Shown here: positions 13,062-63,810 of the stretch, piece by piece | Position numbering within the stretch: position 1 is the first letter of the stretch | Layout of the letters: each line of letters opens with the position of its first letter | NCBI GenBank assembly: GCA_964016885.1 | Contig: OZ024743.1 | Location: 33,728,001-33,792,000 of the forward strand | Direction: 5' to 3' | Length of the DNA stretch: 64,000 bases | Source of the DNA: Eledone cirrhosa | Taxonomy: Eukaryota | Translations under genes and position numbers: made by a program | The notes under the pieces: model-generated | The model's database searches: none | Told to the model about the DNA's origin: nothing | What the model saw: only the letters and a program-made list of their open reading frames with translations

Positions 13062-14845
13062 TTAAATGCTCATTATGTTCCAAATGCCTATGTTGGAGAT
13101 TGTATCAATCAATATTGTTTCCTATTTTACTAAAATATCAAAATGAATCAGAAGTACAAGGTAACAATCAAAGATTAACAGTAAAAATGAAGAAATACAC
13201 TCAGTTCTGTTTATATGCTACTACATGATTTTGTTTGATTATATTTGCTGTTACAAGAACATTTACTTCATATAACCTAATGTTTCAATAACCCATTATT
13301 ATAGTAGGTTATTGAAAGAAAAGTAAAATTTTAGCAAGTATATATTCTTGTAGTAACATAAGTTACATATGTATCAACAGAATTTAAGTGCAATTCATCA
13401 TTTCACCACTTCCATTATTGTTTTACATTCTATTTCTAAATCGTTTCAATCAATGTATGTTTAAATACAACAAAACTTTGCTCATAATAAGTTTTGAATG
13501 TGGTTTTTCAATTTATTAAGATACTGATAAAAAAATTTAATGACGAAATTGTCAGATCTTAAATATTTCTCGTTCAAAAATCAAGATCAAAAAGTCATTA
13601 AAGTATAAAACTAAATTTAAAGAATAATTAGAGGTTTTCTTTATGCTTAGACAATAAATACTTTGTTCATCATTCCACAAACTGACTAGTAAAATTGAGT
13701 ATAAACTTAAGTAGACCAGCATTGACAAAATCAAATTGGTTTCCCCCCCAAAAAAAACATGATTATGTGATTCTCACGGTGTTGATGTTACACATGTGGA
13801 TACATATTAGCCTACACCAGTAAAGTTTAAAGTTTAATTTATTTTTTATTTTGTTTAAGTTTTCAATATATTTTATACACCAATTCAGTTCAATTTGAAT
13901 AAATGTCTCCCTTTTCTGTGCATAATTATAGTAAAGAAAACTCGGTGGGTATTATACACAAGAGACAGTTTATTGGAGATCTCTTTGCCCATAATTAGAT
14001 ATACACAAATAAATACACTATTTCTAAAGCATTGCAATATCACATATGAGAGATAATTACATGCTTTCTCATTGTTTTCTTGAGAAAATAAATACTGTCA
14101 GTATAATAAATGTCTTATTTTCTTAAAATATTTAATATCTATATCTGATTAGCTTTTTTAAAACTTTGAATGCTCTGTATGTGTAAGCACCTGTGATTGT
14201 GTGCGTCTTTGCCTTATGTCTGTATCTCCATGGGTAAATATGTCTATATCTTTGGATTAGATGTTTTTCAGTTGAATCAGTCAACTGGTACAGACTAGGT
14301 GTGTCTTCAAGCCATACTTTATAGTAGAGTTTTACTAATGTACACATTAAAGAATGGAACTTAAAAATGTATATGATATATGTGTGTATATATTCACAAA
14401 ACTAAATATGTATTGTTTCTAAATATTATGTATCAGCTGTCTGAAAGCAAATTCAAATGTTTATAGCATATGTAGAAGCTGTCTTGCATTAGCTATACAG
14501 TTTCTAGTAATTTAACTGAGATGTTTAAATCAAGTCTTCTATTCTTTCAATTATAATTGGTCTGCATTAGAAATTGTTTCTATTTCTACTGAAATATTTT
14601 CAAGATTCATTGTAATAAAATAATGTTTAATATGGAATAAATTAATCTTTTCAACCCAAACATTACAACTGTAATTCTCTCTCGTCTTGCCTACATAGTC
14701 CTATTTTCTTCCTTATTTTCCCCCGTCTTCCTCTCTCCTTAATCCTGTCCTTCTGATATCAAGTGAATTTTCTATCAACAGCAGCTCACCCTGGTGACTG
14801 CTCTGCAAGCTATATTGAATTTTAAAGGTGTTCGTTACTTTTCAG

Positions 14846-14943
14846 TCATCGAAGGCGGAATAGCACAGGCCGTACCCGAACACCCCAAGAGGGAAAATAT
14901 TTTCTCTCTCAGCACTGCATTTGGAGATGCTTACCTATTTCAG
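14846..14943 (+). CDS. sif: still life/TIAM1-like Rac GEF, internal exon (C-terminal part of N-terminal PH domain)
   Basis: ttttcag acceptor and CAG|gtagta donor. Encodes (x)[32 protein letters not shown], which matches the recalled Sif/TIAM PH motif [19 protein letters not shown]. Phase 1 start, phase 0 end. Confidence 0.93.
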
Positions 14944-32281: not shown

Positions 32282-32464
32282 GATGTAAAAATGAAAAAAA
32301 TGGCTGAACTTCAACTGACAGTAGTGACTGACCCCAAGAGCCGAACAGCTATAGTGAAGCAGATCAACCAATGGGAAGAGAATCTCGAAAAATTGTTTAT
32401 AGAGCAGTATCGGTTACGTTGTTACATGGCATCACTTCAAGGATCAGAACTTCCCAATCCAAAG
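32282..32464 (+). CDS. sif: still life/TIAM1-like Rac GEF, internal exon (CC-Ex region)
   Basis: ttttacag acceptor and AAG|gtcagt donor. 183 nt encoding [61 protein letters not shown]. The QWEENLE and [16 protein letters not shown] motifs are characteristic of Sif/TIAM. Confidence 0.96.
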
Positions 32465-32832: not shown

Positions 32833-34184
32833 CTTGCTGGCCCGCCCGGCTAGGTATACCGGCATTTTATCTTTTCAGGAATCTTCCCTACACTCGAGTG
32901 CAAGAATGCCGCACGGCCTCTCAAGTCAGCGAGGGGGGGGGGGGGGGTTAACGTGCTCTGATGTTGGGTTTGAATAGTTTTTTAGGATTCCCCAGTTCAG
33001 CAGCCTGTACGTTAAAGAAAATTGATAGTTACAACAATGAAGGCTGAACAGAGAACAAATTTTTTAACAAACAATAATTTGTACATCCATAATGGAAATT
33101 CCAAGTAACAGAAAATATTTAAATTACATTGTTAGAACCTCAGAGTATATAATATTTTTTGTTCTGCCCTCCGGAGCAAAGATGAAGAGAATGTTTGGCG
33201 AGCTCATCCTAGAGCATCCTACATACAATTGACCATGGGAGAATCACTAATTTCGTAGCTCGTCTCGCGGAGAAGCTCTGTAGACGTTGATCTCTGGACA
33301 CTCCTGTCAGGAGCAGGTAAGCTGTAGTGACTTAGAGGTCTACCACCAATCTCCAGGACACTGTTTTCAAGACAAATGAGCACCTCATTGAAAACGACAT
33401 CGTATGCTATGTTTGGATTGTGTGTGCGTGTGCGGTGGGGGATGTCCTCAACTAGACTTCCACAGTGAGAGAGGGTCGGCAAGATCGCAGTTGTGCAGCA
33501 TAATAGCAAAAAGTTTTCGCAGCTGAGAAGGGAATTTAGCAGTTGCTGCTTCTTGCAGGGTGAGGTACCAATGGCTGTCATCGTGTAACATACCACACAT
33601 CTGGCAAGCCAAATGGTAAGTGGAACATTGATGGCCATTGATGGTTCTCAGATCTTGGAAAGACTGTGGTCCTCTAACCTCGAACAGTAACAATGATGAT
33701 AAGCTGTCTGTGCTTTCGTGAAATAAATAGGTTTTTGTTTTTGTGTATGCAAAAATATCTGTACACGATTATATATATTAAAATAACAGATTAAAGTTTA
33801 AGCAAAGAATCGCTGCTTTCACCCTTAACAGGATCTTCTGAAACTATAAAAATCCGTCTGTGAACGCAGAAGTAAATATTTCGAAAAACGTTATCTAATG
33901 CAGACAGCCAGAGATACAGCCTAAGAAAAAGAGTGGAATGTTGTGCGACATCATAAGAAAAAGTGAGGAATAACGTATAACCGGAAGTGTTGACATTTGA
34001 AATTTTAAAGAAGTGAATATTTAAATAATGTCTTTAATCTTTTAACAAAATTCAGTAGACAAAAATACCCACGCCTTTTTACTTGGAAAAAGTTACATCT
34101 ATGGTGCAAATTTGGTGTTGTTTGGTCCAGTCGTTTGGCGGAAAGTTTGTTACCTACATACGGCCGTCAGCTTTAAAGTATAGA
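32833..34184 (-). mobile_element. Internally deleted non-autonomous Helitron
   Basis: Minus strand starts TCTATACTTTAAAGCTG and ends with a CCGG..CCGG hairpin plus CAAG, inserted between A and T in (AT)n. It retains RepHel fragments VRGPQSFQDLRTING...LHDD..W...QLRKLFAIML..C....PLSLW (33693-33250) joined to the Pif1 C-terminus FSHGQLYVGCSR...TKNIIYSEVL (33243-33124). Confidence 0.88.
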
Positions 34185-39071: not shown

Positions 39072-39325
39072 AGTCTGCTAGCAAATGTGTCCAAATCAAC
39101 AAAGGGAATACTGGGCCGACTTGGCATCTTCACCGTGACATCATTCCACGCTCTGGTCTGTGCTCGTTCTCCACCAACCATGACTGCCATGCAAGGGAAG
39201 ACTCTGCCTGCAAAAAAATCAACTCCTTATGTTCCTAAGAGCAACGAACCACAAGGAGGAACATTGGGAAGACATCCACATCAAATGGCCAATCAAATGC
39301 CACTTGCCCCACCTAGTCACGTTGA
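39072..39325 (+). CDS. sif: still life/TIAM1-like Rac GEF, internal exon (Ex region and linker)
   Basis: ttttgatag acceptor. SLLANVSKSTKGILGRLGIFTVTSFHALVCARS... continues the conserved PNPK-SLL...LG.FTV.SFHA..CAR motif. The donor GA|gttagt at 39326 was chosen because it keeps frame with the next exon. Confidence 0.88.
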
Positions 39326-40093
39326 GTTAGTAAAAGCATTTTCATTTCTTCAATTGTATACACATTAACTCTCCTTTTGTCGGCATCACACCAAAACCTC
39401 AAAATTGGTCTCTTTAAGGAGAGCAATTTCATCTTTGATCTTCTGATTTATAATTTCATTAGGAGTCTGGTTCTTTTTTTGCTGTTATATCAATTTTTCT
39501 ATGTGTGTATGGGTGGGAGTGGCTTATCTATGTGAGCAATTGATTTTACAATTAGTCAGTGTGTGTTGAAGACCATTTTCATGGCTTCAGAGAGGAAATG
39601 AGGAAGGTAACCTCAGATCAATGACTGGGCCTGAATACTTGCAAATGAGTGGGCTCCACTAACAGCACCCAAGTACCAGGTGATGGTGTTAATCCAGACA
39701 ACAAATTAAGTCTATGATCCATTATTAAGTCTACCTCAAATGTATACTTCCAGATGTTGATGATCAGAGAACAAAACTGATTGTCATATAGTGTAGACAT
39801 AGATATTGTAAATATATGCTCTAAATATGAGGTTAATAGCTGAACAAAATATAATTTGTTGACAGTAGTAAGAATTGAACTTATGAACATATACTTAATG
39901 GTACAATACCTTAAACTCACTGCCAATGTACCTCTTTCAACTTGTAAATTTAATACTATATTCAGATTTGGGCAGTAACAATTTTAAATTAGTCATTATA
40001 TTATTTAAAAATCTAAAGCTTTCTTACTTCTTAAGTGTACTATCATATTTAAAAACACCCTGAATGTTTTATTTGCTTTTTGTATTTTCTTAG

Positions 40094-40232
40094 AAAACAT
40101 TTACACAAAGATTTTGAAAAAGAGCAACGAGAAGGTAGACAAACTCCTGATCAACTTCCAAGTCATCGTTCTGATACCCCAGACAGTAGCGCTAAAGAAG
40201 GACTGTCAAAAATCTCCTTACCACACAACCAG
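40094..40232 (+). CDS. sif: still life/TIAM1-like Rac GEF, internal exon (linker, probable start of Raf-like RBD)
   Basis: ttttcttag acceptor and CAG|gtaatg donor. Open frame (E)KHLHKDFEKEQREGRQTPDQLPSHRSDTPDSSAKEGLSKISLPHNQ. The terminal ISLPHNQ resembles the LPNNQ start of the TIAM RBD. Confidence 0.8.
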
Positions 40233-42059: not shown

Positions 42060-43490
42060 GTTCTTTGAGTCTCAGTCATTGATGTTAGTTAACTGGAAAG
42101 TTTGTTGAAATGAATATCAAGCCACTACCTGCAGCCTCAGATATTCAGGACGTATCGGAGGGTTCTTGGTGTTCCCAGCAAGCATGCCTTTTGAAGCGTT
42201 CCAAAAAGCGTGGCGGGGCCAATTTTCTTTAACCATCCCTGGAAACTTTTTGAGATAGTACCTAGTGCGCCTATGACAATCGGGACCACTTTGACTTCAT
42301 GGCAGTTCCAAATCCTTTTTACCTCCCACTTTAAGTCCTGGTATCAGTTAATTTTCTCCCTCTCCTTCTCTTGCACTCTCGTGTCGAATGGGCAGGCCAC
42401 ATCCACAATCAGGCACAATCTTTTTTCTTTGTCCAAAACCACCAGGTCAGGTCTATTGTGTTCTAGTTTCTTGTCCGTCTGTATCCTAAAATCCCACAGC
42501 ACCTTCACCTGATCGTTTTCTATCACCGACTCTGGCTTATGCTCATACCACTTCTCAGAGTGTGGTAAATTGTTTACTTTGCATAGGTGCCAGTGGATCA
42601 CCCTGCCCATCACATCATGTCTCCAGCCCTTATAGTGAGTCTGGGCTAGGTGTTTACACTCGGATACAATGTGAGCCACAGTCTCCTCTCTCTCTCCACA
42701 GATCCTCCACAGTGGGCTAGCCTCCTCCTTGTAAATATGGTGTTTCAACCACTTCGTTTTGAGGGCCTGCTCTTGCGCAACCATCAACATTCCTTCTGTA
42801 GCCTTTTTAAGGTCTCCTCTTTTCAACCAGTTCCATGTCTGTGGATCTCTGAATTCAGTTTTCTCAAAGAAGGTACTATGAAGGGATTTTTCATGAAGGC
42901 TGCTCTTTCTCCTTGTTGTCATTTCCTCCTTGGACATCCCCTGGTCTATTGTCCTCTCCTTCAGTACAGTTCTGAGCATTGGCTCCTTACTATCAGTCAC
43001 ATATTTGTGTAGGTTGTTTTTCTCCATCTGAACACAGTCCTCTATGCTGATAAGACCTCTTCCACCTCCAGATCTCCTTAAGTAGAGTCTATCGACATCA
43101 CTCCTCTTGTGGAACATGTTGTAGATAGTCAATAGCTTCCTAGTCTTCCTATCCATTTCTTTTTGTTCAGCAACATTCCATCTCAGAATTCCCGCACTGT
43201 ACCTAATAATAGACATAGCTCGAGAATTTACTGCACTTATGGCATTCCTACTGTTCAGATGTGACTTTAATACGCTCCTTACTCTCCGAATGTATTCAGA
43301 TCTTATCAATTCCTTCATTTTTTTGTTCTTGATGTCATCAGCCTCCAGAACACCCAAATACTTGTATCCTTCTTCAGTGTCAATTTCCTTTATCATCTCA
43401 CCTGTTGGTACCTGGATTCCGTTGTTTCTGCTCAATTTACCCCTCTTCATCACAAGGACTCCACACTTACTAATACCAAATTGCATACAT
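42060..43490 (-). mobile_element. 5'-truncated R4/Dong-clade non-LTR retrotransposon (RT C-terminus, CCHC knuckle, restriction-like endonuclease), inactivated
   Basis: ORF 43486-42344 has YKYLG, RLYLRRSGGGRGL, a CCHC-like WRICGEREETVAHIVSEC (first Cys replaced by Trp), RHD and RPDLVV..D. It continues in frame past a premature TGA to a stop at 42137-42139 (YQDLKWEVKRIW...VVPIVIGALG...LQKACLLGT). Both ends abut (TAA)n/(ATT)n tracts. Confidence 0.92.
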
Positions 43491-43500
43491 ATATCATTGC

Positions 43501-43532
<32 letters not shown>

Positions 43533-44205
43533 TACTACAAAGTCCTTTACAAAGTTCTTTACACAAGCAATCAGTATGCTAGTCTCATTCAAAACACCTA
43601 CTGGTTTTTCACTTGTCATGCTCATTGTCCCATCTTACAAGACCTATATTAAATACTTTTCCCAGATTTCTTTACTAATCCCCCCGGAATTCAATCCTAA
43701 CTCAATCTATATCAGTTCAAGATGAACATTAATTACATCAATCACACCTGTCTAAGAAGACCTAAAGATGCCAATGAGATGAACATCCCACAGAAATGTT
43801 CTTTAATTACTTTCATTACTTTTATTCTCAAGGTACTTCCCTACTTTTCATTAGTCTTCAACTATGCGATCAATAATCTCAATATTTTTAAAGGAACAAT
43901 TCACTTACATTTTTAAAGAGTTTCTTCTAAAATTTCCTTTACAGATGACAGCTAACTTGAAGAAAAAATGGTACAGCTTCAATCCTAAAAGGCTGATGTC
44001 ACACAGTGTCAGTAACTATTCCAATATTTTAGATTTGCTATCAGAGCAAATATTGCTTTTACTAATGATACTTCTTCTGGTATTTCCTACTATTTTGGTA
44101 CATAGTTAAGATATAATTGAACATAATTTCTTTAAAACAAATGTGTGTATATATATATAATCACACACACATAGACCTATATACACACACACACACACAG
44201 ACATA

Positions 44206-47389: not shown

Positions 47390-47420
<31 letters not shown>

Positions 47421-47473
47421 GGCCTTTCCTGATGATTTCCTTCGAATGAAACGGATCTAGTCCTGTAGAAGCC
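47421..47473 (+). ncRNA. Type I hammerhead ribozyme
   Basis: GGC(CU)UUC-CUGAUGA-UUUC CUUC GAAU-GAA-ACGG AUCUAGUC CUGU-A/GAAGCC. Core is intact with a GUA triplet, and stem I has a 2-nt bulge. Homologous to 61400-61450 and 61475-61590. Confidence 0.7.
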
Positions 47474-47548
47474 ATTTCTATATTAAACATTTATACTCTG
47501 CTTTTTATTGAGTACCTTACTTACTCTGGTTACCCCCTGATTGAATCT

Positions 47549-47550
<2 letters not shown>
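47421..47550 (+). mobile_element. Solo copy of hammerhead-bearing repeat family H3
   Basis: ~115 bp alignable by eye to 61477-61590. Lies between a (TA)n and a (CA)n tract. Confidence 0.65.
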
Positions 47551-47635
<85 letters not shown>

Positions 47636-49980
47636 TGGTGAAAGTAATAGCTTTATTTTGAAACAGAAGTAAAGTAACTAGCTGTTTGATCACATGACTA
47701 TCTGCCTATTGTATATTATAATGTAAATGGTTAAGTATTTCACTTGAGAGAAACTTGTACCCTTTACATAACCTACCTAGAAGAAACATCAGCATAAGAC
47801 TAAGTGACAAAGCTGACTTCTTGAATTATAGACTTCTACAATATTCTAGCCTACCCAACTTTATTCACAAGCCTTGGGCCATCCCAAGGCTATAGTAGAA
47901 AACACTTTCCCAATATGTTGAATAGTAGTATCTAATCTGGAAACCTGTGATGCAAAAGGAATGCTTCATGCATTGTACAGTTCACAATGCAGTCATTTTA
48001 ATTTAAAATATGTTAAAAATTCAGTTTAATTTATCACTCCATGTGCTGTATTTGTACAAGATACATAATACGTACTTTAGACCTTAATAATTGAAATAAG
48101 ACCACTACGCTGTAATTAATATTTAGCAATTATCAACTCAGCAAACAACCTTTCTTTAAATCCTTCAACACAATACTAAATGACTGTCATGTTTTTGTTT
48201 TTATCACTTAATCCAGGAGAAGGGTAATACCATTGACCCTTCTCATGAGCTTTTAAGACTCGTATGAGTAAGGGAGTAAGATAACCTCTAACTGGAGACT
48301 TGGTCCAAATACTTACAACAGAGTGAATTTCATAAAAGACATGCATGCATCAAATAGTGGCATTAAACTGGCAACCAATTAACAATGTAGGCTACAGTAA
48401 TATTTAAACTTTGAAGGCAAATAGCTGAAATAGATACTGCAATGGTATCCCATCCAATGTTCTACAGATTCCACTCTAGCCTGGTACTTTATCAACCCCA
48501 AAAGGATGAAGGGCAAAAGTAACCTCATCAGGATTTGAACTCAGACTGCAAGGAGCCAAAATCATTATTGCAAAGTGATTTTGTCTGATATCTTAAGACT
48601 TCTGCTAATTTGCTGCTTACCCGAGCATAATCATGTGTACTTCATTTGAGAAAAAAAAAAAAAAGATTGGTGGGGGTAGTTACAAAGTATAATTAATGTG
48701 TCTATTAAACTGCATAGCAAGAACAAAATAAAAAGCTAACAGAATAAAGTAAATAAATCCAACTAGAAATCACAGATTTAAGAAATTTATTAAAATATTA
48801 CAGTAACTGAATTGTCTACAACTGTTTTTATGCATATAATAAGCTTGCTGAAGAGATGATGTAATGTTACAGATCATATTGCAGGAGAGATTTTCTTTTA
48901 TATTTCCAAAACTTCTCTTCAAAATGAAGTGAAGAATAATACAACCTTTAATGACTCTTTAGTTCATCAGTTGTCTTTAAACGTTATCAGACATCAATAA
49001 AATCAGCTAGAATCACTTTTTTAAATATCTAATTTGCTTTAGCCACTAACGAATATTATTCTCATTCTAATATAAAAATATAGAGTTTTAATAGGAGGCT
49101 CCCTTTGGTCATGACTAACTATGGATATGCACTGCCTGGTCTTGGAATCAAACTCTCGATCTTATAATTGTGAGGCCAACACACTAACCACTAAGAGGCA
49201 TAACTTGGGTATGGCAAGCATGGTATATGCCATGAGCACCACTTGGACTAGGATCACTTTCTATTAAAGCCAGATAACTTTCTTTGATTATCATGTGTGA
49301 GAGGCACGATGGTGGCTGGATCATCATCATCATCATCTTCGTTTAACGTCCATCTTCCACGCTAGCATAGGTAAACCATTTATATAAATTATTAGGCCCA
49401 TACAGTGCTGGAAACTACATGACCACATATGCATACCTCATTGTATGAGATCAAATATTTTAATAGGGTCATCATCATCATTTTATGTCCGCTTTTCCCT
49501 GCTTGCAAGGGTGGGACAATATTTGTCAAAAATCAATATTACAAAGATCACTCCCTTTAAAAACCCTAACACTTTTGAAAATACTTCATGTATACTTAGG
49601 TGTAAAGGATACCTGTAGAACAAATGAAAATGCAGTTTATTACCTTAAACATTCATTTATTTAAACAGTGGTCGCAGTCCTATGGTCTAACAATTACTAT
49701 ATAGCTTGATGCATTGCAGGGGCACAATTTCACTGCTTGCCATATGTGCTATTTTCCCTGGTTACGCCTCTGAGACCTTCAAGGATTTAATAAATACATG
49801 CAAAAACAAAGAAAATTCACCAGCCTGTATATTTCATCAATCGGGATTGAATTGCAGTAAAGTGCTTTCCATAATGATATTTCATATTTAAGGAAATATT
49901 AAACCCTCAAACAAGTTATGAAAATAAATTCTGAAATTATAATTATTAATATTCAATATAACCCATGTGTATGTATGTAT

Positions 49981-53556: not shown

Positions 53557-55101
53557 TTAGACTTTTATGAAGTTTCAATAATTTTACAAGTTGAAAATGT
53601 ATTTGATAACAGTTGCAAATAACTAATTTATAGAGTCTGTTGAATGGCAATATATTGAAGAATTAACTTACAAATCAAATTGTAACTCTGAAATTTGAGG
53701 ATACAACAAAACTGAAACCCCCTCCCCATGAAACTAAAAGTTATCAAATATATTTTCAACCTGAATTCAGTTTAATTTGATGACAGGTAAAATGCATTTT
53801 TCTATAATTGCCTTTGCACTCTGTTATCTCAAGGAAGTACAGATTTTTAAATTTCAAGCAATCATTTTACATTTTAAATAACCCTTTGAATATTTTGTCA
53901 TGGTACTAAAAATATCCAGTTTCTGAAGGCACCTCAATCACATATTGTAAAACAAATGCTAATTCTCATTAATAATATTGTATAGTATTTCAGGTCATTT
54001 CTAAAGAAGAAATTGTGCTCTTAGCCAGTTATGTCATTATTTACTTCCTGTATTCCTTATATATGCCCATTTTATGTGTCATTTCCTATTCTAATATATA
54101 TTCTATCCCATTTTTGTAATTTTACATCCTCTATGTATAGAATCGCAATTTTTTCCCACGTTTGCTCTTGTTCTAAATGATTCTTTCAACAATTATTTAA
54201 AAAAAGATACAAAACACTTACGTACATTCAACACCACACAAACATCTGTACTGTACCACTGCAATATTGTTATATACCCATGTTATGAAATTGAGAAGGT
54301 AACATATTTTTCCTGCTTTGATGCAGCAGCATGCTGGGTATTTCTCACCTAGAACAAAGGGAAAACACTGCATTCATAACCAGGTAAGCTGTGAACATAA
54401 CCTCCTGCTTGCCAGCCCCAACATTCTACCTATTAGCACTTTCTCACCTTGGTGTCAAGGTAAAAATTTCACTGACCACTATATATGCTTGGCATTATCA
54501 TGAGATATTTTCCCCAAAGTTAAATAAATTTACAACATGCATTGGGATAATGATTCATTAAAAATAAAGTCCATTCCATTAAATATTGATAAATTAACAA
54601 AGTGTTCCGCATGTTATTATCAGATTTAACTCTTAACATCCTGTACTGCATGAAACCATATTAGCAAGACATTCTTGAAAAGTATAAAATGGCACTATAA
54701 TTATATCACATTAAAAATTGAATACTGCAAATTTTCACAAGTGTCTGTCTGTTAGTAAATATATTATAAGCATTTCAATTAACAGGACCATTTTGAAATA
54801 TTTTCTGATAAATTATTACATCATGTTAAGAGTTAAATAAAGTTACCTACTTAATTAAAACTAAAATAAATATTTCTTAGTGTAAATATATAATATAACC
54901 TGTAATGAAAACTTTGTAAGTTTTAAAGCATTTGGAAATTTGAAAATATGGTCACCACAATGCAGATAACTAACAATAGTTGATAATTGTAGATAATAAT
55001 TGAATAAATCTAGTAAAGTACACCTGGAGATAGAATAAAATGGCCTTTATTCAATTTATACAACTATTAGATAAGGTTATCAACTATTATTATAATTATC
55101 C

Positions 55102-60584: not shown

Positions 60585-61385
60585 AATATATAATGTATAT
60601 ATATATATAATATATAATGTATATATATATATTATATATAATATATAATGTATATATATATATTATATATAATATATAATGTATATATATATATATTATA
60701 ATGTATATATATAATATATAATATGTGTGTATATATATATAATATATAATGTGTATATATATATATATAATATATAATGTATATATATATATAATATATA
60801 ATGTATATATATATATATTATATATAATGTATATATATATATTATATATAATGTATATATATATATATATTATATATAATGTATATATATATATAATATA
60901 TAATGTATATATATATATATTATATATAATGTATATATATATATTATATATAATGTATATATATATATATATTATATATAATGTATATATATATATTATA
61001 TATAATGTATATATATATATTATATATAATGTATATATATATATATTATATATAATGTATATATATATATTATATATAATGTATATATATATATATATAT
61101 ATTATATATAATGTATATATATATATATATATTATATATAATGTATATATATATATTATATATAATGTGTATATATATATATTATATATAATGTATATAT
61201 ATATATTATATATAATGTATATATATATATTATATATAATGTATATATATTATATATAATGTATATATATTATATATATTATATATAATGTATATATATA
61301 TATTATATATAATGTATATATATATATATATTATATATAATATATATATTATGTGTAATATATATATATATGTATGTATATATAT
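60585..61385. repeat. AT-rich minisatellite, unit about TATATAATG(TA)nT
   Basis: Tandem units of about 22-28 bp with variable (TA)n length. Confidence 0.92.
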
Positions 61386-61392
61386 TTAATAC

Positions 61393-61590
61393 AGAAAAAG
61401 GCTTCTACAGGACTAAAACTGTTTCATTCGGGAGAAATCCTCAGGAAGCCGACTATAATATGGTGGTAATTGGTGATTTCTCCCGAATGAAACAGTTCTA
61501 GTCCTGTAGAATCCTTTTCTATATTAAATATTTATACTTTTCTTTGTATTCAGCACCTTACTTACTGTGGTTACCCCCAATTGAACCTGG
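61393..61590. mobile_element. Head-to-head inverted copy of hammerhead-bearing repeat family H3
   Basis: 61393-61439 is the near reverse complement of 61475-61520. The right arm continues with sequence shared with 47474-47550. Confidence 0.65.
61400..61450 (-). ncRNA. Type I hammerhead ribozyme
   Basis: Minus strand reads GGCUUC-CUGAGGA-UUUC UCCC GAAU-GAA-ACAG UUUUAGUC CUGU-A/GAAGCC. Perfect 6-bp stem I, 4-bp stem III and a GUA cleavage triplet. Confidence 0.78.
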
Positions 61591-63810
61591 AATAAACTTA
61601 TATGAACTGATAGATAGACAGATAAATGTAGTGTGTTGGAGAAAGAGTTGTGATAAACATATGCATACAGTTAGCTAATATTTCTCTTTCTGGAACTGAT
61701 TTGAAATTGACATTCAAAATTTTATTATTTCTTAATTTACCGACCCTGAGAAATATTGTTGGATAACATCCATGAGCTCGGCTGGTCTCCAGCTGAATCA
61801 GTTGGAGACAGTTGCTTCTGATAGGTCCCACTGGAAGGAGTGTTTGAAGAACCACCTCCCCATAACCTAGGAATAAGTGGGTGGAGAAGAACTAACTAAG
61901 GAAGAAAAGAAATGTTGACTTTGGTGGGATTTAAACTAGCAAAGCATTAGTCTTGGGCTCTAACAACCCTGCTAATTCACCAAGTCTGGGTTAACTATTC
62001 TTTTATGTTCACGATTAAACACCTTATTGACAAATATTTTGCATATTGGATTTTAATATCATCATTTTACATCTGCTTTCACATTTTGTATGAATTGTTA
62101 CAGATCAAGTCAGTATCTTCTAGACTGGTGGGGGAACCTCGTCTCCTTTAATACATCTCATTTTTGGCATGAATTCTTTGGCTGGATACCCTTCCTAATG
62201 CCAACTCCTTTTCAGAGTGTACTGGATGCATTTTATCATAGCACCAGCTATAACAAAATTGTATACAAAAATACTTTGAGAGCTATTGTATAAAGAGAAT
62301 TTCTTAAATTATCTTGAAATAGAACATCTGAAAATGAAAAAAAAAATTAAATCTATTAAGATATTTTGGAATAAATATAAAAATGAAGTTGATTTATTCT
62401 GGTGAGCTATACTGTGTTAAAATGTTGTTTTAAATTGAAACACTTGACTAACTTGCATTCATTTATAACACAGTTGTTACTCTAAAATAGGATACTGTTT
62501 AATATTTTTGCAATTAACTAAAGTAGACATAGCTTTAATTATCTTATTTCATTTCTTTGCTGATATTAAGATTGAACTTATCAGCATTAATAATTGAGAA
62601 ATAGGTGATGCAGTTTTGGAATGAGAAAATATTTACTATATTAGCTATACATTTCATCAAACATGAGGTCAAGACAAGATTGAAATTTTATTGAAACTCT
62701 ATCTTTCTACAATAAGCTGTGTATACAATAAAATATGAAAGTAATGTTTAAGCTTTTCATAACCATATTTCTAATGAAATAATTTTTACAAAGTAATCAA
62801 GAACTTGAAGGGATGTAGTAATATAACTAACCTTCTCATTATCAAGTCAGTGTTTGGAACATAACTTAACAAAAGTTCTTTCATAAATTTTTGATGGAAC
62901 TGTTTTTAGAGAAATATAAACACTTTAAAGCAGTTTTAAATGGTAGAACCAATGGTAGTTTCAGATGATTTGGTAGATAACTACTAGTACTTTATTAATA
63001 ATTAATCTGAAAACATATTGATTCATATAGATTAATTATTGGTGCCTATAATAGTGTGCGAATATAAAATATGGGTAATCTTTCAAGAAATTAGTTTGAT
63101 TTTCTAGTTTGGTTTTCTATTTTTCTTCAGCTTCATTTATCTGTCCTGTAGTAATAATTGATGCTATTTTATGAAACTGTGTCCCAAGCAAGGGCAACTA
63201 CTTATGAAACAAATGTGCTATAACATAAACATATTACTTTTAAAACAAATCCAATAATCACTGCTTCTATTCCATTCTTTCTGTTATGTTTTCTTGTCAA
63301 ATAATAAAGAAAGAGTAGAATTATAGAATTAAAGGGATTCTTTCAAACTACTGAAATAAAAACAATTTCAAACAACCAATACATCATTAGTGTTAGAATT
63401 ATTAAGGACAAACTGCCTAATTCTGCTACATAAAGTTATTGACTTCTTTTTGTGGCCATTAACTAATATTTATTTTGTAAGGAATAGGCTAATTCTTTTT
63501 ATATCGATTCTAAATTAAAATTATCTCAGTTTGATTTGTATTCTTGTTTTGGGTCGATTTTATCAATGTGTTTCAGTTGATTTCATATTTCCTATCAATG
63601 AAAAAGAAAATCAATATGATAAAATTACCTATGCTACACCCTCTCATTTCTTCCTTTCTTAACCTTTCCGCTTCTCTGTAGCTCCTCTCTAACCTCACTG
63701 TTGAGTGTTTACTGACAGAATCTAGCCATAAATACATTTACTCATAGTCAAACCACCAAGCATGAAAATAAAATGGATGTAAAAGAATAAAATTCAAAAG
63801 CAGAACTTAT

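What the first reader, a model, noticed from the sequence alone, without database searches (positions are those of the whole stretch)
47421..47473. Hammerhead on the host-sense strand, with structure-preserving differences from its paralogue
Seen: relative to 61400-61450 the changes fall at the variable core position N7 (U vs G), in loop II (CUUC vs UCCC), in loop III, as A-U to G-U in stem III, and as a 2-nt bulge in stem I. All catalytic nucleotides are unchanged. Inference: if this region is within the sif intron, the ribozyme is transcribed in the pre-mRNA and could cleave it after 47467, affecting splicing or RNA output.
Basis: partly seen in the sequence, partly recalled or inferred. Interest (0 to 1): 0.75.

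Follow-up and report, generated by a model that had tools for sequence, protein, structure and literature searches.

The report
Penelope-type hammerhead stub in octopus intron
The self-cutting-RNA (hammerhead) motif is really there, on the sense strand of an intron of the octopus still life gene, but it is one of at least 5,881 copies of a short repeat that was likely pasted in by a Penelope-type jumping gene, and it is predicted to be a mostly inactive passenger, not a gene regulator.

Summary
A type I hammerhead motif with all 11 core bases lies at 47421-47473 (+), cut site after 47467; 0 such motifs in 200 shuffles. It is intronic and sense in still life/Tiam1, between two optional small exons. 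But it is the 5' end of a ~130-nt insert between (TA)n and (CA)n, and a 30-nt piece of the family occurs 5,881 times in this genome. Copies have the Penelope-like layout: inverted twin (68 of 90), one-sided tail, microsatellite targets. The 'structure-preserving' differences do not show selection: loop II and one stem I base mark subfamilies; across 68 copies the core mutates like flanking DNA (7.0% vs 6.4%), with 0 compensatory and 49 pair-breaking changes; 17 of 68 look equally intact. The stem I bulge is probably damage, and the active fold is predicted to be disfavoured. No ORF-bearing parent and no RNA data were found. One side result: half of the copies start at the hammerhead's 5' edge, 30 nt after a TATA box of the long copies, often with an extra G, as if copied to the end of a capped RNA. 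The scan noted such octopus elements before on other DNA.

The parts
47421..47549 (+). Whole insert: 5'-truncated copy of the hammerhead repeat (hammerhead, spacer, tail); no inverted twin at this site
47421..47473 (+). Type I hammerhead motif; core 47429-47435 and 47448-47451, U16.1 47466, predicted cut after A17 47467
   Evidence: sequence, descriptor scan
47421..47428 (+). 5' strand of stem I and 5' edge of the insert; GGCC start is rare in the family (1 of 100 listed) against GGGC (60 of 100)
   Evidence: hand tally
47436..47447 (+). Weak stem II: U.U at 10.1-11.1, 3 bp, loop CUUC (one of the common subfamily loops)
47451..47466 (+). Stem III (4 bp, A>G at 47453) with 8-nt loop holding a CUAG palindrome (U>A at 47455)
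47496..47549 (+). One-sided tail: absent from 64 of 68 inverted twins, present on the main arm
47394..47420 (.). (TA)n tract, left flank and likely target
47550..47634 (.). (CA)n tract, right flank; a common 3' end of this family
61376..61466 (-). Second copy: tail-less inverted arm with intact core (hammerhead 61450-61400)
61470..61600 (+). Third copy: tailed arm of the same fold-back pair, on the sense strand, core broken (C3 missing, A6>G at 61473)
40095..40232 (+). still life/Tiam1 exon upstream, present in all three homologues used
43945..44007 (+). Optional small exon 3.4 kb upstream (in P0001 only; ends approximate)
54330..54383 (+). Optional small exon 6.9 kb downstream (in P0001 and P0002, not P0011)

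Best explanation
The motif is the 5' end of one of thousands of short copies of a non-coding, hammerhead-bearing repeat that was likely inserted into a (TA)n tract by a Penelope-type reverse transcriptase/endonuclease, and it is predicted to cut the still life pre-mRNA slowly or not at all. Shown: copy number, insert limits, twin-and-tail layout, a 419-nt long form with no coding link, decay without regard to structure, intronic sense position. Inferred: the enzyme (supplied in trans, perhaps by a Hydra-clade element) nicks TA-rich DNA, starts reverse transcription at one of two internal sites (about +66 and +124 from C3) and runs to the RNA's 5' end at the hammerhead's edge; two such cDNAs give the fold-back pairs, one gives a solo copy like this one. 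The ribozyme served the parent RNA, not the host.
For: 5,881 exact copies of a 30-nt piece (2,927 + 2,954; reversed control 0) and 2,712 of a 32-nt tail pattern. Of 90 tail-selected copies, 68 have an inverted twin and only 4 of these twins reach the tail end; this matches the twin, tail and (TA)n features described for PLE insertions (PMC8557442) and the two internal RT start sites of PAc (PMC11167929). In 68 copies that span the motif (of 120 examined): core 52/748 changed vs 117/1840 downstream (Fisher p=0.60); core intact in 28 (44% expected if sites decay independently); core plus 10 inner pairs intact in 17; pair changes 13 one-sided, 0 compensatory, 49 breaking; this copy's divergence (4/68 sites) equals the median. 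Hammerhead fold energy -2.4 kcal/mol here vs -4.2 for the family majority sequence and -8.3 for 61400-61450; forcing the fold costs 5.6, 13.2 and 12.7 kcal/mol with 30, 60 and 150 nt of native flank; z-score 0.36. PLE hammerheads cleave poorly alone (PMC4209133) or need the element's protein (PMC11167929). The genome holds many Hydra-like ORFs with RWK and DKT motifs, up to 719 aa open.
Against: No autonomous parent was tied to this family: no shared sequence upstream of the long form in 49 flanks, none downstream in 27, and the one Hydra-like family followed ends in a different hammerhead-like motif. U10.1.U11.1 hammerheads can be active (PMC3088659; axolotl HHR_Amex2 cut 22% in 1 h as a monomer, PMC7229834), and stem III here is long enough for a monomer. 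Folding programs ignore tertiary contacts and were not calibrated on an active hammerhead here. Neutral decay of the family does not exclude selection on this one copy; orthology in other species could not be tested.
Confidence: 0.85

Rival explanations
1. The copy has been recruited by the host: it cuts the nascent still life intron and so affects use of the two optional small exons or mRNA output, as the Cpeb3 intron ribozyme does.
For: Sense, intronic, core intact, no inverted twin to mask it; lies between two exons that differ among homologous isoforms. Precedents: Cpeb3 (PMC10919898, abstract); conserved amniote intronic hammerheads (PMC6155905, passages).
Against: One in four copies looks equally intact (17 of 68); divergence is at the family median; the stem I change weakens the fold; active fold predicted 6-13 kcal/mol above the best fold in context. 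With thousands of copies and very long introns, sense intronic copies are expected.
Confidence: 0.04
2. The copy still cuts a small share of pre-mRNA as an unselected side effect, alone or by pairing with another family RNA through the CUAG loop, with no useful role.
For: All catalytic bases, GUA triplet and three helices can form; U.U-based stem II tolerated elsewhere.
Against: Probability of the full fold about 1e-5 for the isolated 53-mer, inner pairs <=0.08; no recognisable loop I-loop II contact; the nearest same-strand copy (61470) is core-dead and 14 kb away.
Confidence: 0.2
3. The family is a classical non-LTR retrozyme that spreads through circular RNA cut from tandem arrays, and this is a fragment of a monomer.
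For: Long form is 419 nt, non-coding and AT-rich, with helix III, like retrozymes (PMC7229834; bioRxiv 10.64898/2026.07.22.740005). A 312-nt tandem array with the same core and stem II arms exists in this genome (L321).
Against: No clean head-to-tail unit among 232 loci with a family hit (2 candidates, both separated by 250-300 nt of unrelated DNA). Copy ends do not fall at the cleavage site. The sample is small against thousands of copies. This rival overlaps the best explanation, since retrozymes are proposed to be PLE derivatives.
Confidence: 0.2
4. The motif is a chance match in AT-rich DNA.
For: No Rfam hammerhead hit; fold not more stable than shuffles.
Against: 0 motifs in 200 shuffles vs 2 in the window; the family majority sequence has every core base and three helices.
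Confidence: 0.01

Closest known systems
Truncated pLTR insertions of endonuclease-bearing Penelope-like elements, esp. Hydra clade (Craig et al. 2021, PMC8557442; Cervera and de la Pena 2014, PMC4209133)
   Same: Type I hammerhead near the element end, 5' truncation, inverted twin, one-sided tail, (TA)n target, mostly solo motifs. The tail shares a GTATTGAG-AC word with the Hydra record printed just before Hydra-1_Obim in the supplement (seen by eye).
   Different: No RT/GIY-YIG ORF linked; tail about 58 nt rather than 30-40; hammerhead differs from that of Hydra-1_Obim; has a 4-bp helix III and short helix II, unlike min-HHRs.
PAc (Poseidon) of Anolis (Frangieh et al. 2024, PMC11167929)
   Same: Two internal end points downstream of the hammerhead that define the tail; AT-rich target; both strands extended fits the fold-back pairs.
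   Different: In PAc the ORF starts inside the hammerhead; here both ATGs in the motif stop within 6 codons. No biochemistry here.
Metazoan non-LTR retrozymes, esp. axolotl HHR_Amex2 (Cervera and de la Pena 2020, PMC7229834)
   Same: Non-coding, a few hundred nt, thousands of copies, type I hammerhead with U.U at the base of helix II.
   Different: No tandem arrays found for this family; dispersed, truncated, fold-back copies; circular RNA not tested.
Domesticated intronic ribozymes (RECK and C10orf118 hammerheads; Cpeb3 HDV-like)
   Same: Sense-strand ribozyme motif in an intron; Cpeb3 also lies in a neuronal gene.
   Different: Those are single or few-copy and conserved across species; this is one of thousands, at median divergence, with no sign of constraint.

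Membership tests
Type I hammerhead ribozyme | Core CUGANGA, GAAA, UH in order | tested here: met
Type I hammerhead ribozyme | Three helices, helix I open | tested here: met
   All can pair; helix I needs a 2-nt bulge, helix II has 3 bp
Type I hammerhead ribozyme | G10.1-C11.1 pair (usual, not universal) | tested here: not met
   U.U in this copy and in 67-68 of 68 copies; known variant
Type I hammerhead ribozyme | Active fold favoured in context | tested here: inconclusive
   Predicted disfavoured by 5.6-13.2 kcal/mol; no calibration on an active control
Type I hammerhead ribozyme | Self-cleavage | not testable with these tools
   needs an assay
Penelope-like element insertion | Inverted 5'-truncated twin | tested here: met
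   68 of 90 copies and 61376-61600; absent at 47421 itself
Penelope-like element insertion | One-sided tail | tested here: met
   4 of 68 twins reach the tail end
Penelope-like element insertion | Insertion in (TA)n microsatellites | tested here: met
   (seen in printed flanks, not counted)
Autonomous Penelope-like element | Linked RT + GIY-YIG ORF | tested here: not met
   only one Hydra-like family was followed to its 3' end
Non-LTR retrozyme | Tandem units each with a hammerhead | tested here: inconclusive
   none clean in 232 loci with a hit; genome-wide map not possible
Non-LTR retrozyme | Circular RNA accumulates | not testable with these tools
   no RNA holder listed
Domesticated intronic ribozyme | Sense strand of an intron | tested here: met
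Domesticated intronic ribozyme | Constraint above neutral | tested here: not met
   divergence at family median; family core not constrained
Domesticated intronic ribozyme | Kept at the orthologous site in other species | not testable with these tools
   no relative genomes; contigs laid did not bridge the site

The most novel reading that the evidence does not exclude
The thousands of short copies, this one included, are run-off cDNAs of a capped RNA that starts right at the hammerhead: a TATAAATA box lies 30 nt upstream in the long form (25 of 30 long copies carry it), 44 of 90 copies begin within -12..+4 of C3 and none between -100 and -30, and most full short starts carry an extra G where the long form has C, as a cap copied by reverse transcriptase would leave. 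The octopus genome would then be a record of a strong-stop-like step in Penelope transposition, made from RNA that the hammerhead had not cut.
Probability: 0.4. Interest if true: 0.5.

Novelty: new member of a known kind. Interest (0 to 1): 0.2.

Why it matters
As a host regulator the site is very unlikely to matter: it is one ordinary copy of an abundant repeat. The family has some value: it shows that 'intact, sense-strand, intronic' hammerheads are expected by chance in octopus, with a measured base rate (17 of 68 full copies look intact), and the fixed 5' edge with TATA box and extra G offers a cheap test of where Penelope-type RNAs start and how fold-back insertions arise, which is still open. 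If the copy did control the still life small exons (about 4%), it would be an invertebrate parallel of the Cpeb3 ribozyme.

Tried and rejected
Rfam: no hammerhead hit. RNA evidence: no RNA holder listed. Empty-site or orthology test: contigs of three runs of one sample hold the family; one contig matches the right flank 47642-48300 with no difference, so the runs may be the source of the assembly; nothing bridged the site, and the left flank had almost no cover. Parent search: sequence upstream of two long copies on contig C2 proved to be another repeat, linked to the family in only those two of 30 loci; no shared continuation after the tail in 27 loci, apart from one duplicated locus pair; PF26215 is not in the library; the abundant Hydra-like family has another 3' end; a second Hydra-like fragment (L129) was not followed. 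A long open frame on the antisense strand of the long form had only a weak Pfam match (DUF2824, E=0.14) and the Atlas gave no answer; treated as probably non-coding. Four short family words were absent from the PMC8557442 supplement, but that file was cut when stored and line breaks can hide words. tRNA-SINE origin: considered by eye for a GGTTCAATC word at the antisense end, dropped for lack of an A box; not tested with a tool. One search had U16.1 and H17 off by one; its 'core intact' count is void and one search replaces it.

Full report
Observation. It has CUGAUGA at 47429-47435, a 3-bp stem II on a U.U pair, GAAA at 47448-47451, a 4-bp stem III with an 8-nt loop, GUA with A17 at 47467, and an open stem I. 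A descriptor finds two motifs in the window, this one and 61444-61406 (-), and none in 200 of 200 dinucleotide shuffles. Rfam does not call it.

Host gene. A window exon peptide is 100% identical to a still life protein of Octopus bimaculoides over 60 aa; the genome has 3.0 Gb, so the host is very likely an octopus. tblastn with three homologues places exons on + at 14827-14943, from 26607, about 32285-32464, 39072-39326, 40095-40232, about 43945-44007 and 54330-54383, and the RBD to C-terminal exons at window-equivalent 132,269-183,911. The site is thus intronic and sense, 3.4 kb after one optional small exon and 6.9 kb before another; P0001 has both, P0002 the second, P0011 neither. This rests on protein homology, not on transcripts.

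What the motif belongs to. The match to other copies runs from 47421 to about 47549, between (TA)n and (CA)n. A 30-nt piece of the family occurs exactly 5,881 times in the genome, control 0; a 32-nt tail pattern 2,712 times; the far 5' end of the long form only 13 times. I took the first 90 listed tail matches on contig C1, chosen without regard to the hammerhead. 68 of 90 have an inverted twin next to their 5' end, and only 4 of the 68 twins reach the tail end; most stop near +66 from C3. 61376-61600 is such a pair: a tail-less arm on - and a tailed, core-broken arm on +. The long form is 419 nt and starts at a fixed point after (TG)n. Inverted truncated twin, one-sided tail and (TA)n targets are the published marks of Penelope-like insertions (PMC8557442: passages, section 11 and supplement searches); hammerheads in their terminal repeats are general (PMC4209133: parts 1-2 of 4); the tail equals the stretch between two internal RT start sites in PAc (PMC11167929: parts 1-2 of 4).

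Parent. I found none. 49 upstream flanks of long copies share nothing adjacent except simple repeats and other repeat families; 27 copies not followed directly by (TA)n share no continuation. The genome has an abundant Hydra-like element (RWK and DKT motifs, open frames to 719 aa; 150 scored of 21,484 candidates; no Pfam match). In 16 copies followed past the ORF there was no match to this family, and the one copy read out ends in another hammerhead-like motif. The family is therefore likely non-autonomous; which enzyme moved it is open.

Do the differences show selection? No. Of 120 copies examined (90 tail-selected, 30 chosen by upstream sequence), 68 span C3 to the end of stem I; the other 52 are truncated and were left out. 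Core positions differ from the majority in 52 of 748 cells (7.0%), downstream unstructured positions in 117 of 1,840 (6.4%; p=0.60). The core is intact in 28 of 68, close to the 44% expected from independent decay; core plus ten inner pairs in 17 of 68. Stem changes: 13 keep a pair on one side, none is compensatory, 49 break it. At a 25% base rate, two intact copies out of three in a window has a chance of about 0.16. Loop II and the third U of stem I are subfamily states; N7=G is found in 1 of 68 copies and belongs to the other copy. This copy has two changes inside the motif (47453 A>G, 47455 U>A), and 4 of 68 scored sites differ, the family median. For the 5' end, a hand tally of the first 100 of 1,015 matches gives GGGC in 60, the long-form TCGGC in 26, and this copy's GGCC in 1. 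The '2-nt bulge' is thus most simply the family's 1-nt bulge plus a G>C change or junction base that breaks a pair and is rescued by a register shift (inference). Limit: a family-wide test cannot exclude selection on one copy.

Would it cut? The hammerhead fold scores -2.4 kcal/mol against -8.0 for the best fold of the 53-mer; with native flanks, forcing it costs 5.6-13.2 kcal/mol. The majority sequence scores -4.2, so this copy is the weaker. Against this reading: the program ignores tertiary contacts, the other copy and the majority sequence are also predicted to misfold in part, and U.U-based hammerheads can work (PMC3088659, passages; PMC7229834, passages and section 15: 22% in 1 h as a monomer). 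PLE hammerheads were weak alone or needed the element's protein. No RNA run was listed.

Side result. 44 of 90 copies start between -12 and +4 of C3, one at -17, 40 further inside, 5 more than 100 nt upstream and none between -100 and -30. 47421 is at -8. TATAAATA is present in 25 of 30 long copies, 30 nt before stem I in the 18 where the offset was measured cleanly. Among 22 short arms that keep the full GGC, 16 have G before it and 1 has the long-form C; about half of the 16 could take that G from the twin. A capped RNA starting here, copied to its end, would explain all three; that reverse transcriptases copy a cap as an extra base is recalled, not from a call. Alternatives: a 3' splice site at the ACAG just upstream (in D. 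virilis Penelope an intron ends at helix I), or a separate short master copy.

What is known. Six paper searches listed no paper on this family; only two papers hold both 'hammerhead ribozyme' and 'cephalopod'. An octopus repeat annotation reports Penelope-like elements and does not mention ribozymes (PMC13282606, passages). A preprint argues that animal retrozymes derive from PLEs (10.64898/2026.07.22.740005, part 1 of 5; its supplements are closed). Subscription papers and repeat databases were not searchable, so the family may be catalogued there. Domesticated intronic ribozymes (PMC6155905, passages; PMC10919898, abstract) differ by being rare and conserved. Earlier scan notes describe the same kind of element in other octopus DNA; a look-up by this sequence found none.

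Verdict. Real motif, correct placement, ordinary origin: a new family of a known kind of hammerhead-bearing Penelope-type repeat, most likely inert at this site. Interest 0.2.

Noticed in passing
window 59192-59165 (-): Hammerhead core with a 6-bp stem II and an extra base after A9, from a different repeat family (related copies in L018 and L294); U16.1 is not in place, so it fails the descriptor.
   Followed up: partly
L321:2023-3436 and the opposite strand of the same locus (G000:C3:255118000-255122000): Young 312-nt tandem array (4.5 copies, 99% alike) plus an inverted unit, each with CUGAUGA and the same stem II arms as this family: a likely non-LTR retrozyme.
   Followed up: partly
L288:1258-3414 and loci L273-L302: Abundant Hydra-like Penelope element with open frames up to 719 aa and a long 3' region with internal microsatellites; in L319 it ends in a hammerhead-like motif with a long stem II about 1.3 kb after the stop.
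   Followed up: partly
window 43945-44007 and 54330-54383 (+): Two optional small exons of still life before the RBD, used differently in three cephalopod-type homologues; the second has a tandem CAGCAG acceptor.
   Followed up: partly
long form, antisense strand (e.g. L039:1505-1744): The majority sequence has about 95 open codons on the antisense strand; no convincing family match.
   Followed up: partly
window 42344-43531 (-): 395-aa open frame that looks like the C-terminal part of a LINE reverse transcriptase (by recall; no Pfam match at E<=0.01).
   Followed up: no
window 33219-33768 (-): Frames that resemble a Helitron helicase fragment (by recall; no Pfam match).
   Followed up: no
L033:2068-3090 and L049:349-1119: Fragments of GC-richer Penelope-like elements with GIY-YIG matches next to long copies of this family; probably independent insertions in the same TA tracts.
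   Followed up: partly
L061-L065, L069, L072: Seven near-identical loci on contig C1 carry the same truncated copy with the same flanks: the copy was amplified inside a larger repeat or duplication, so exact-match counts overstate independent insertions somewhat.
   Followed up: no
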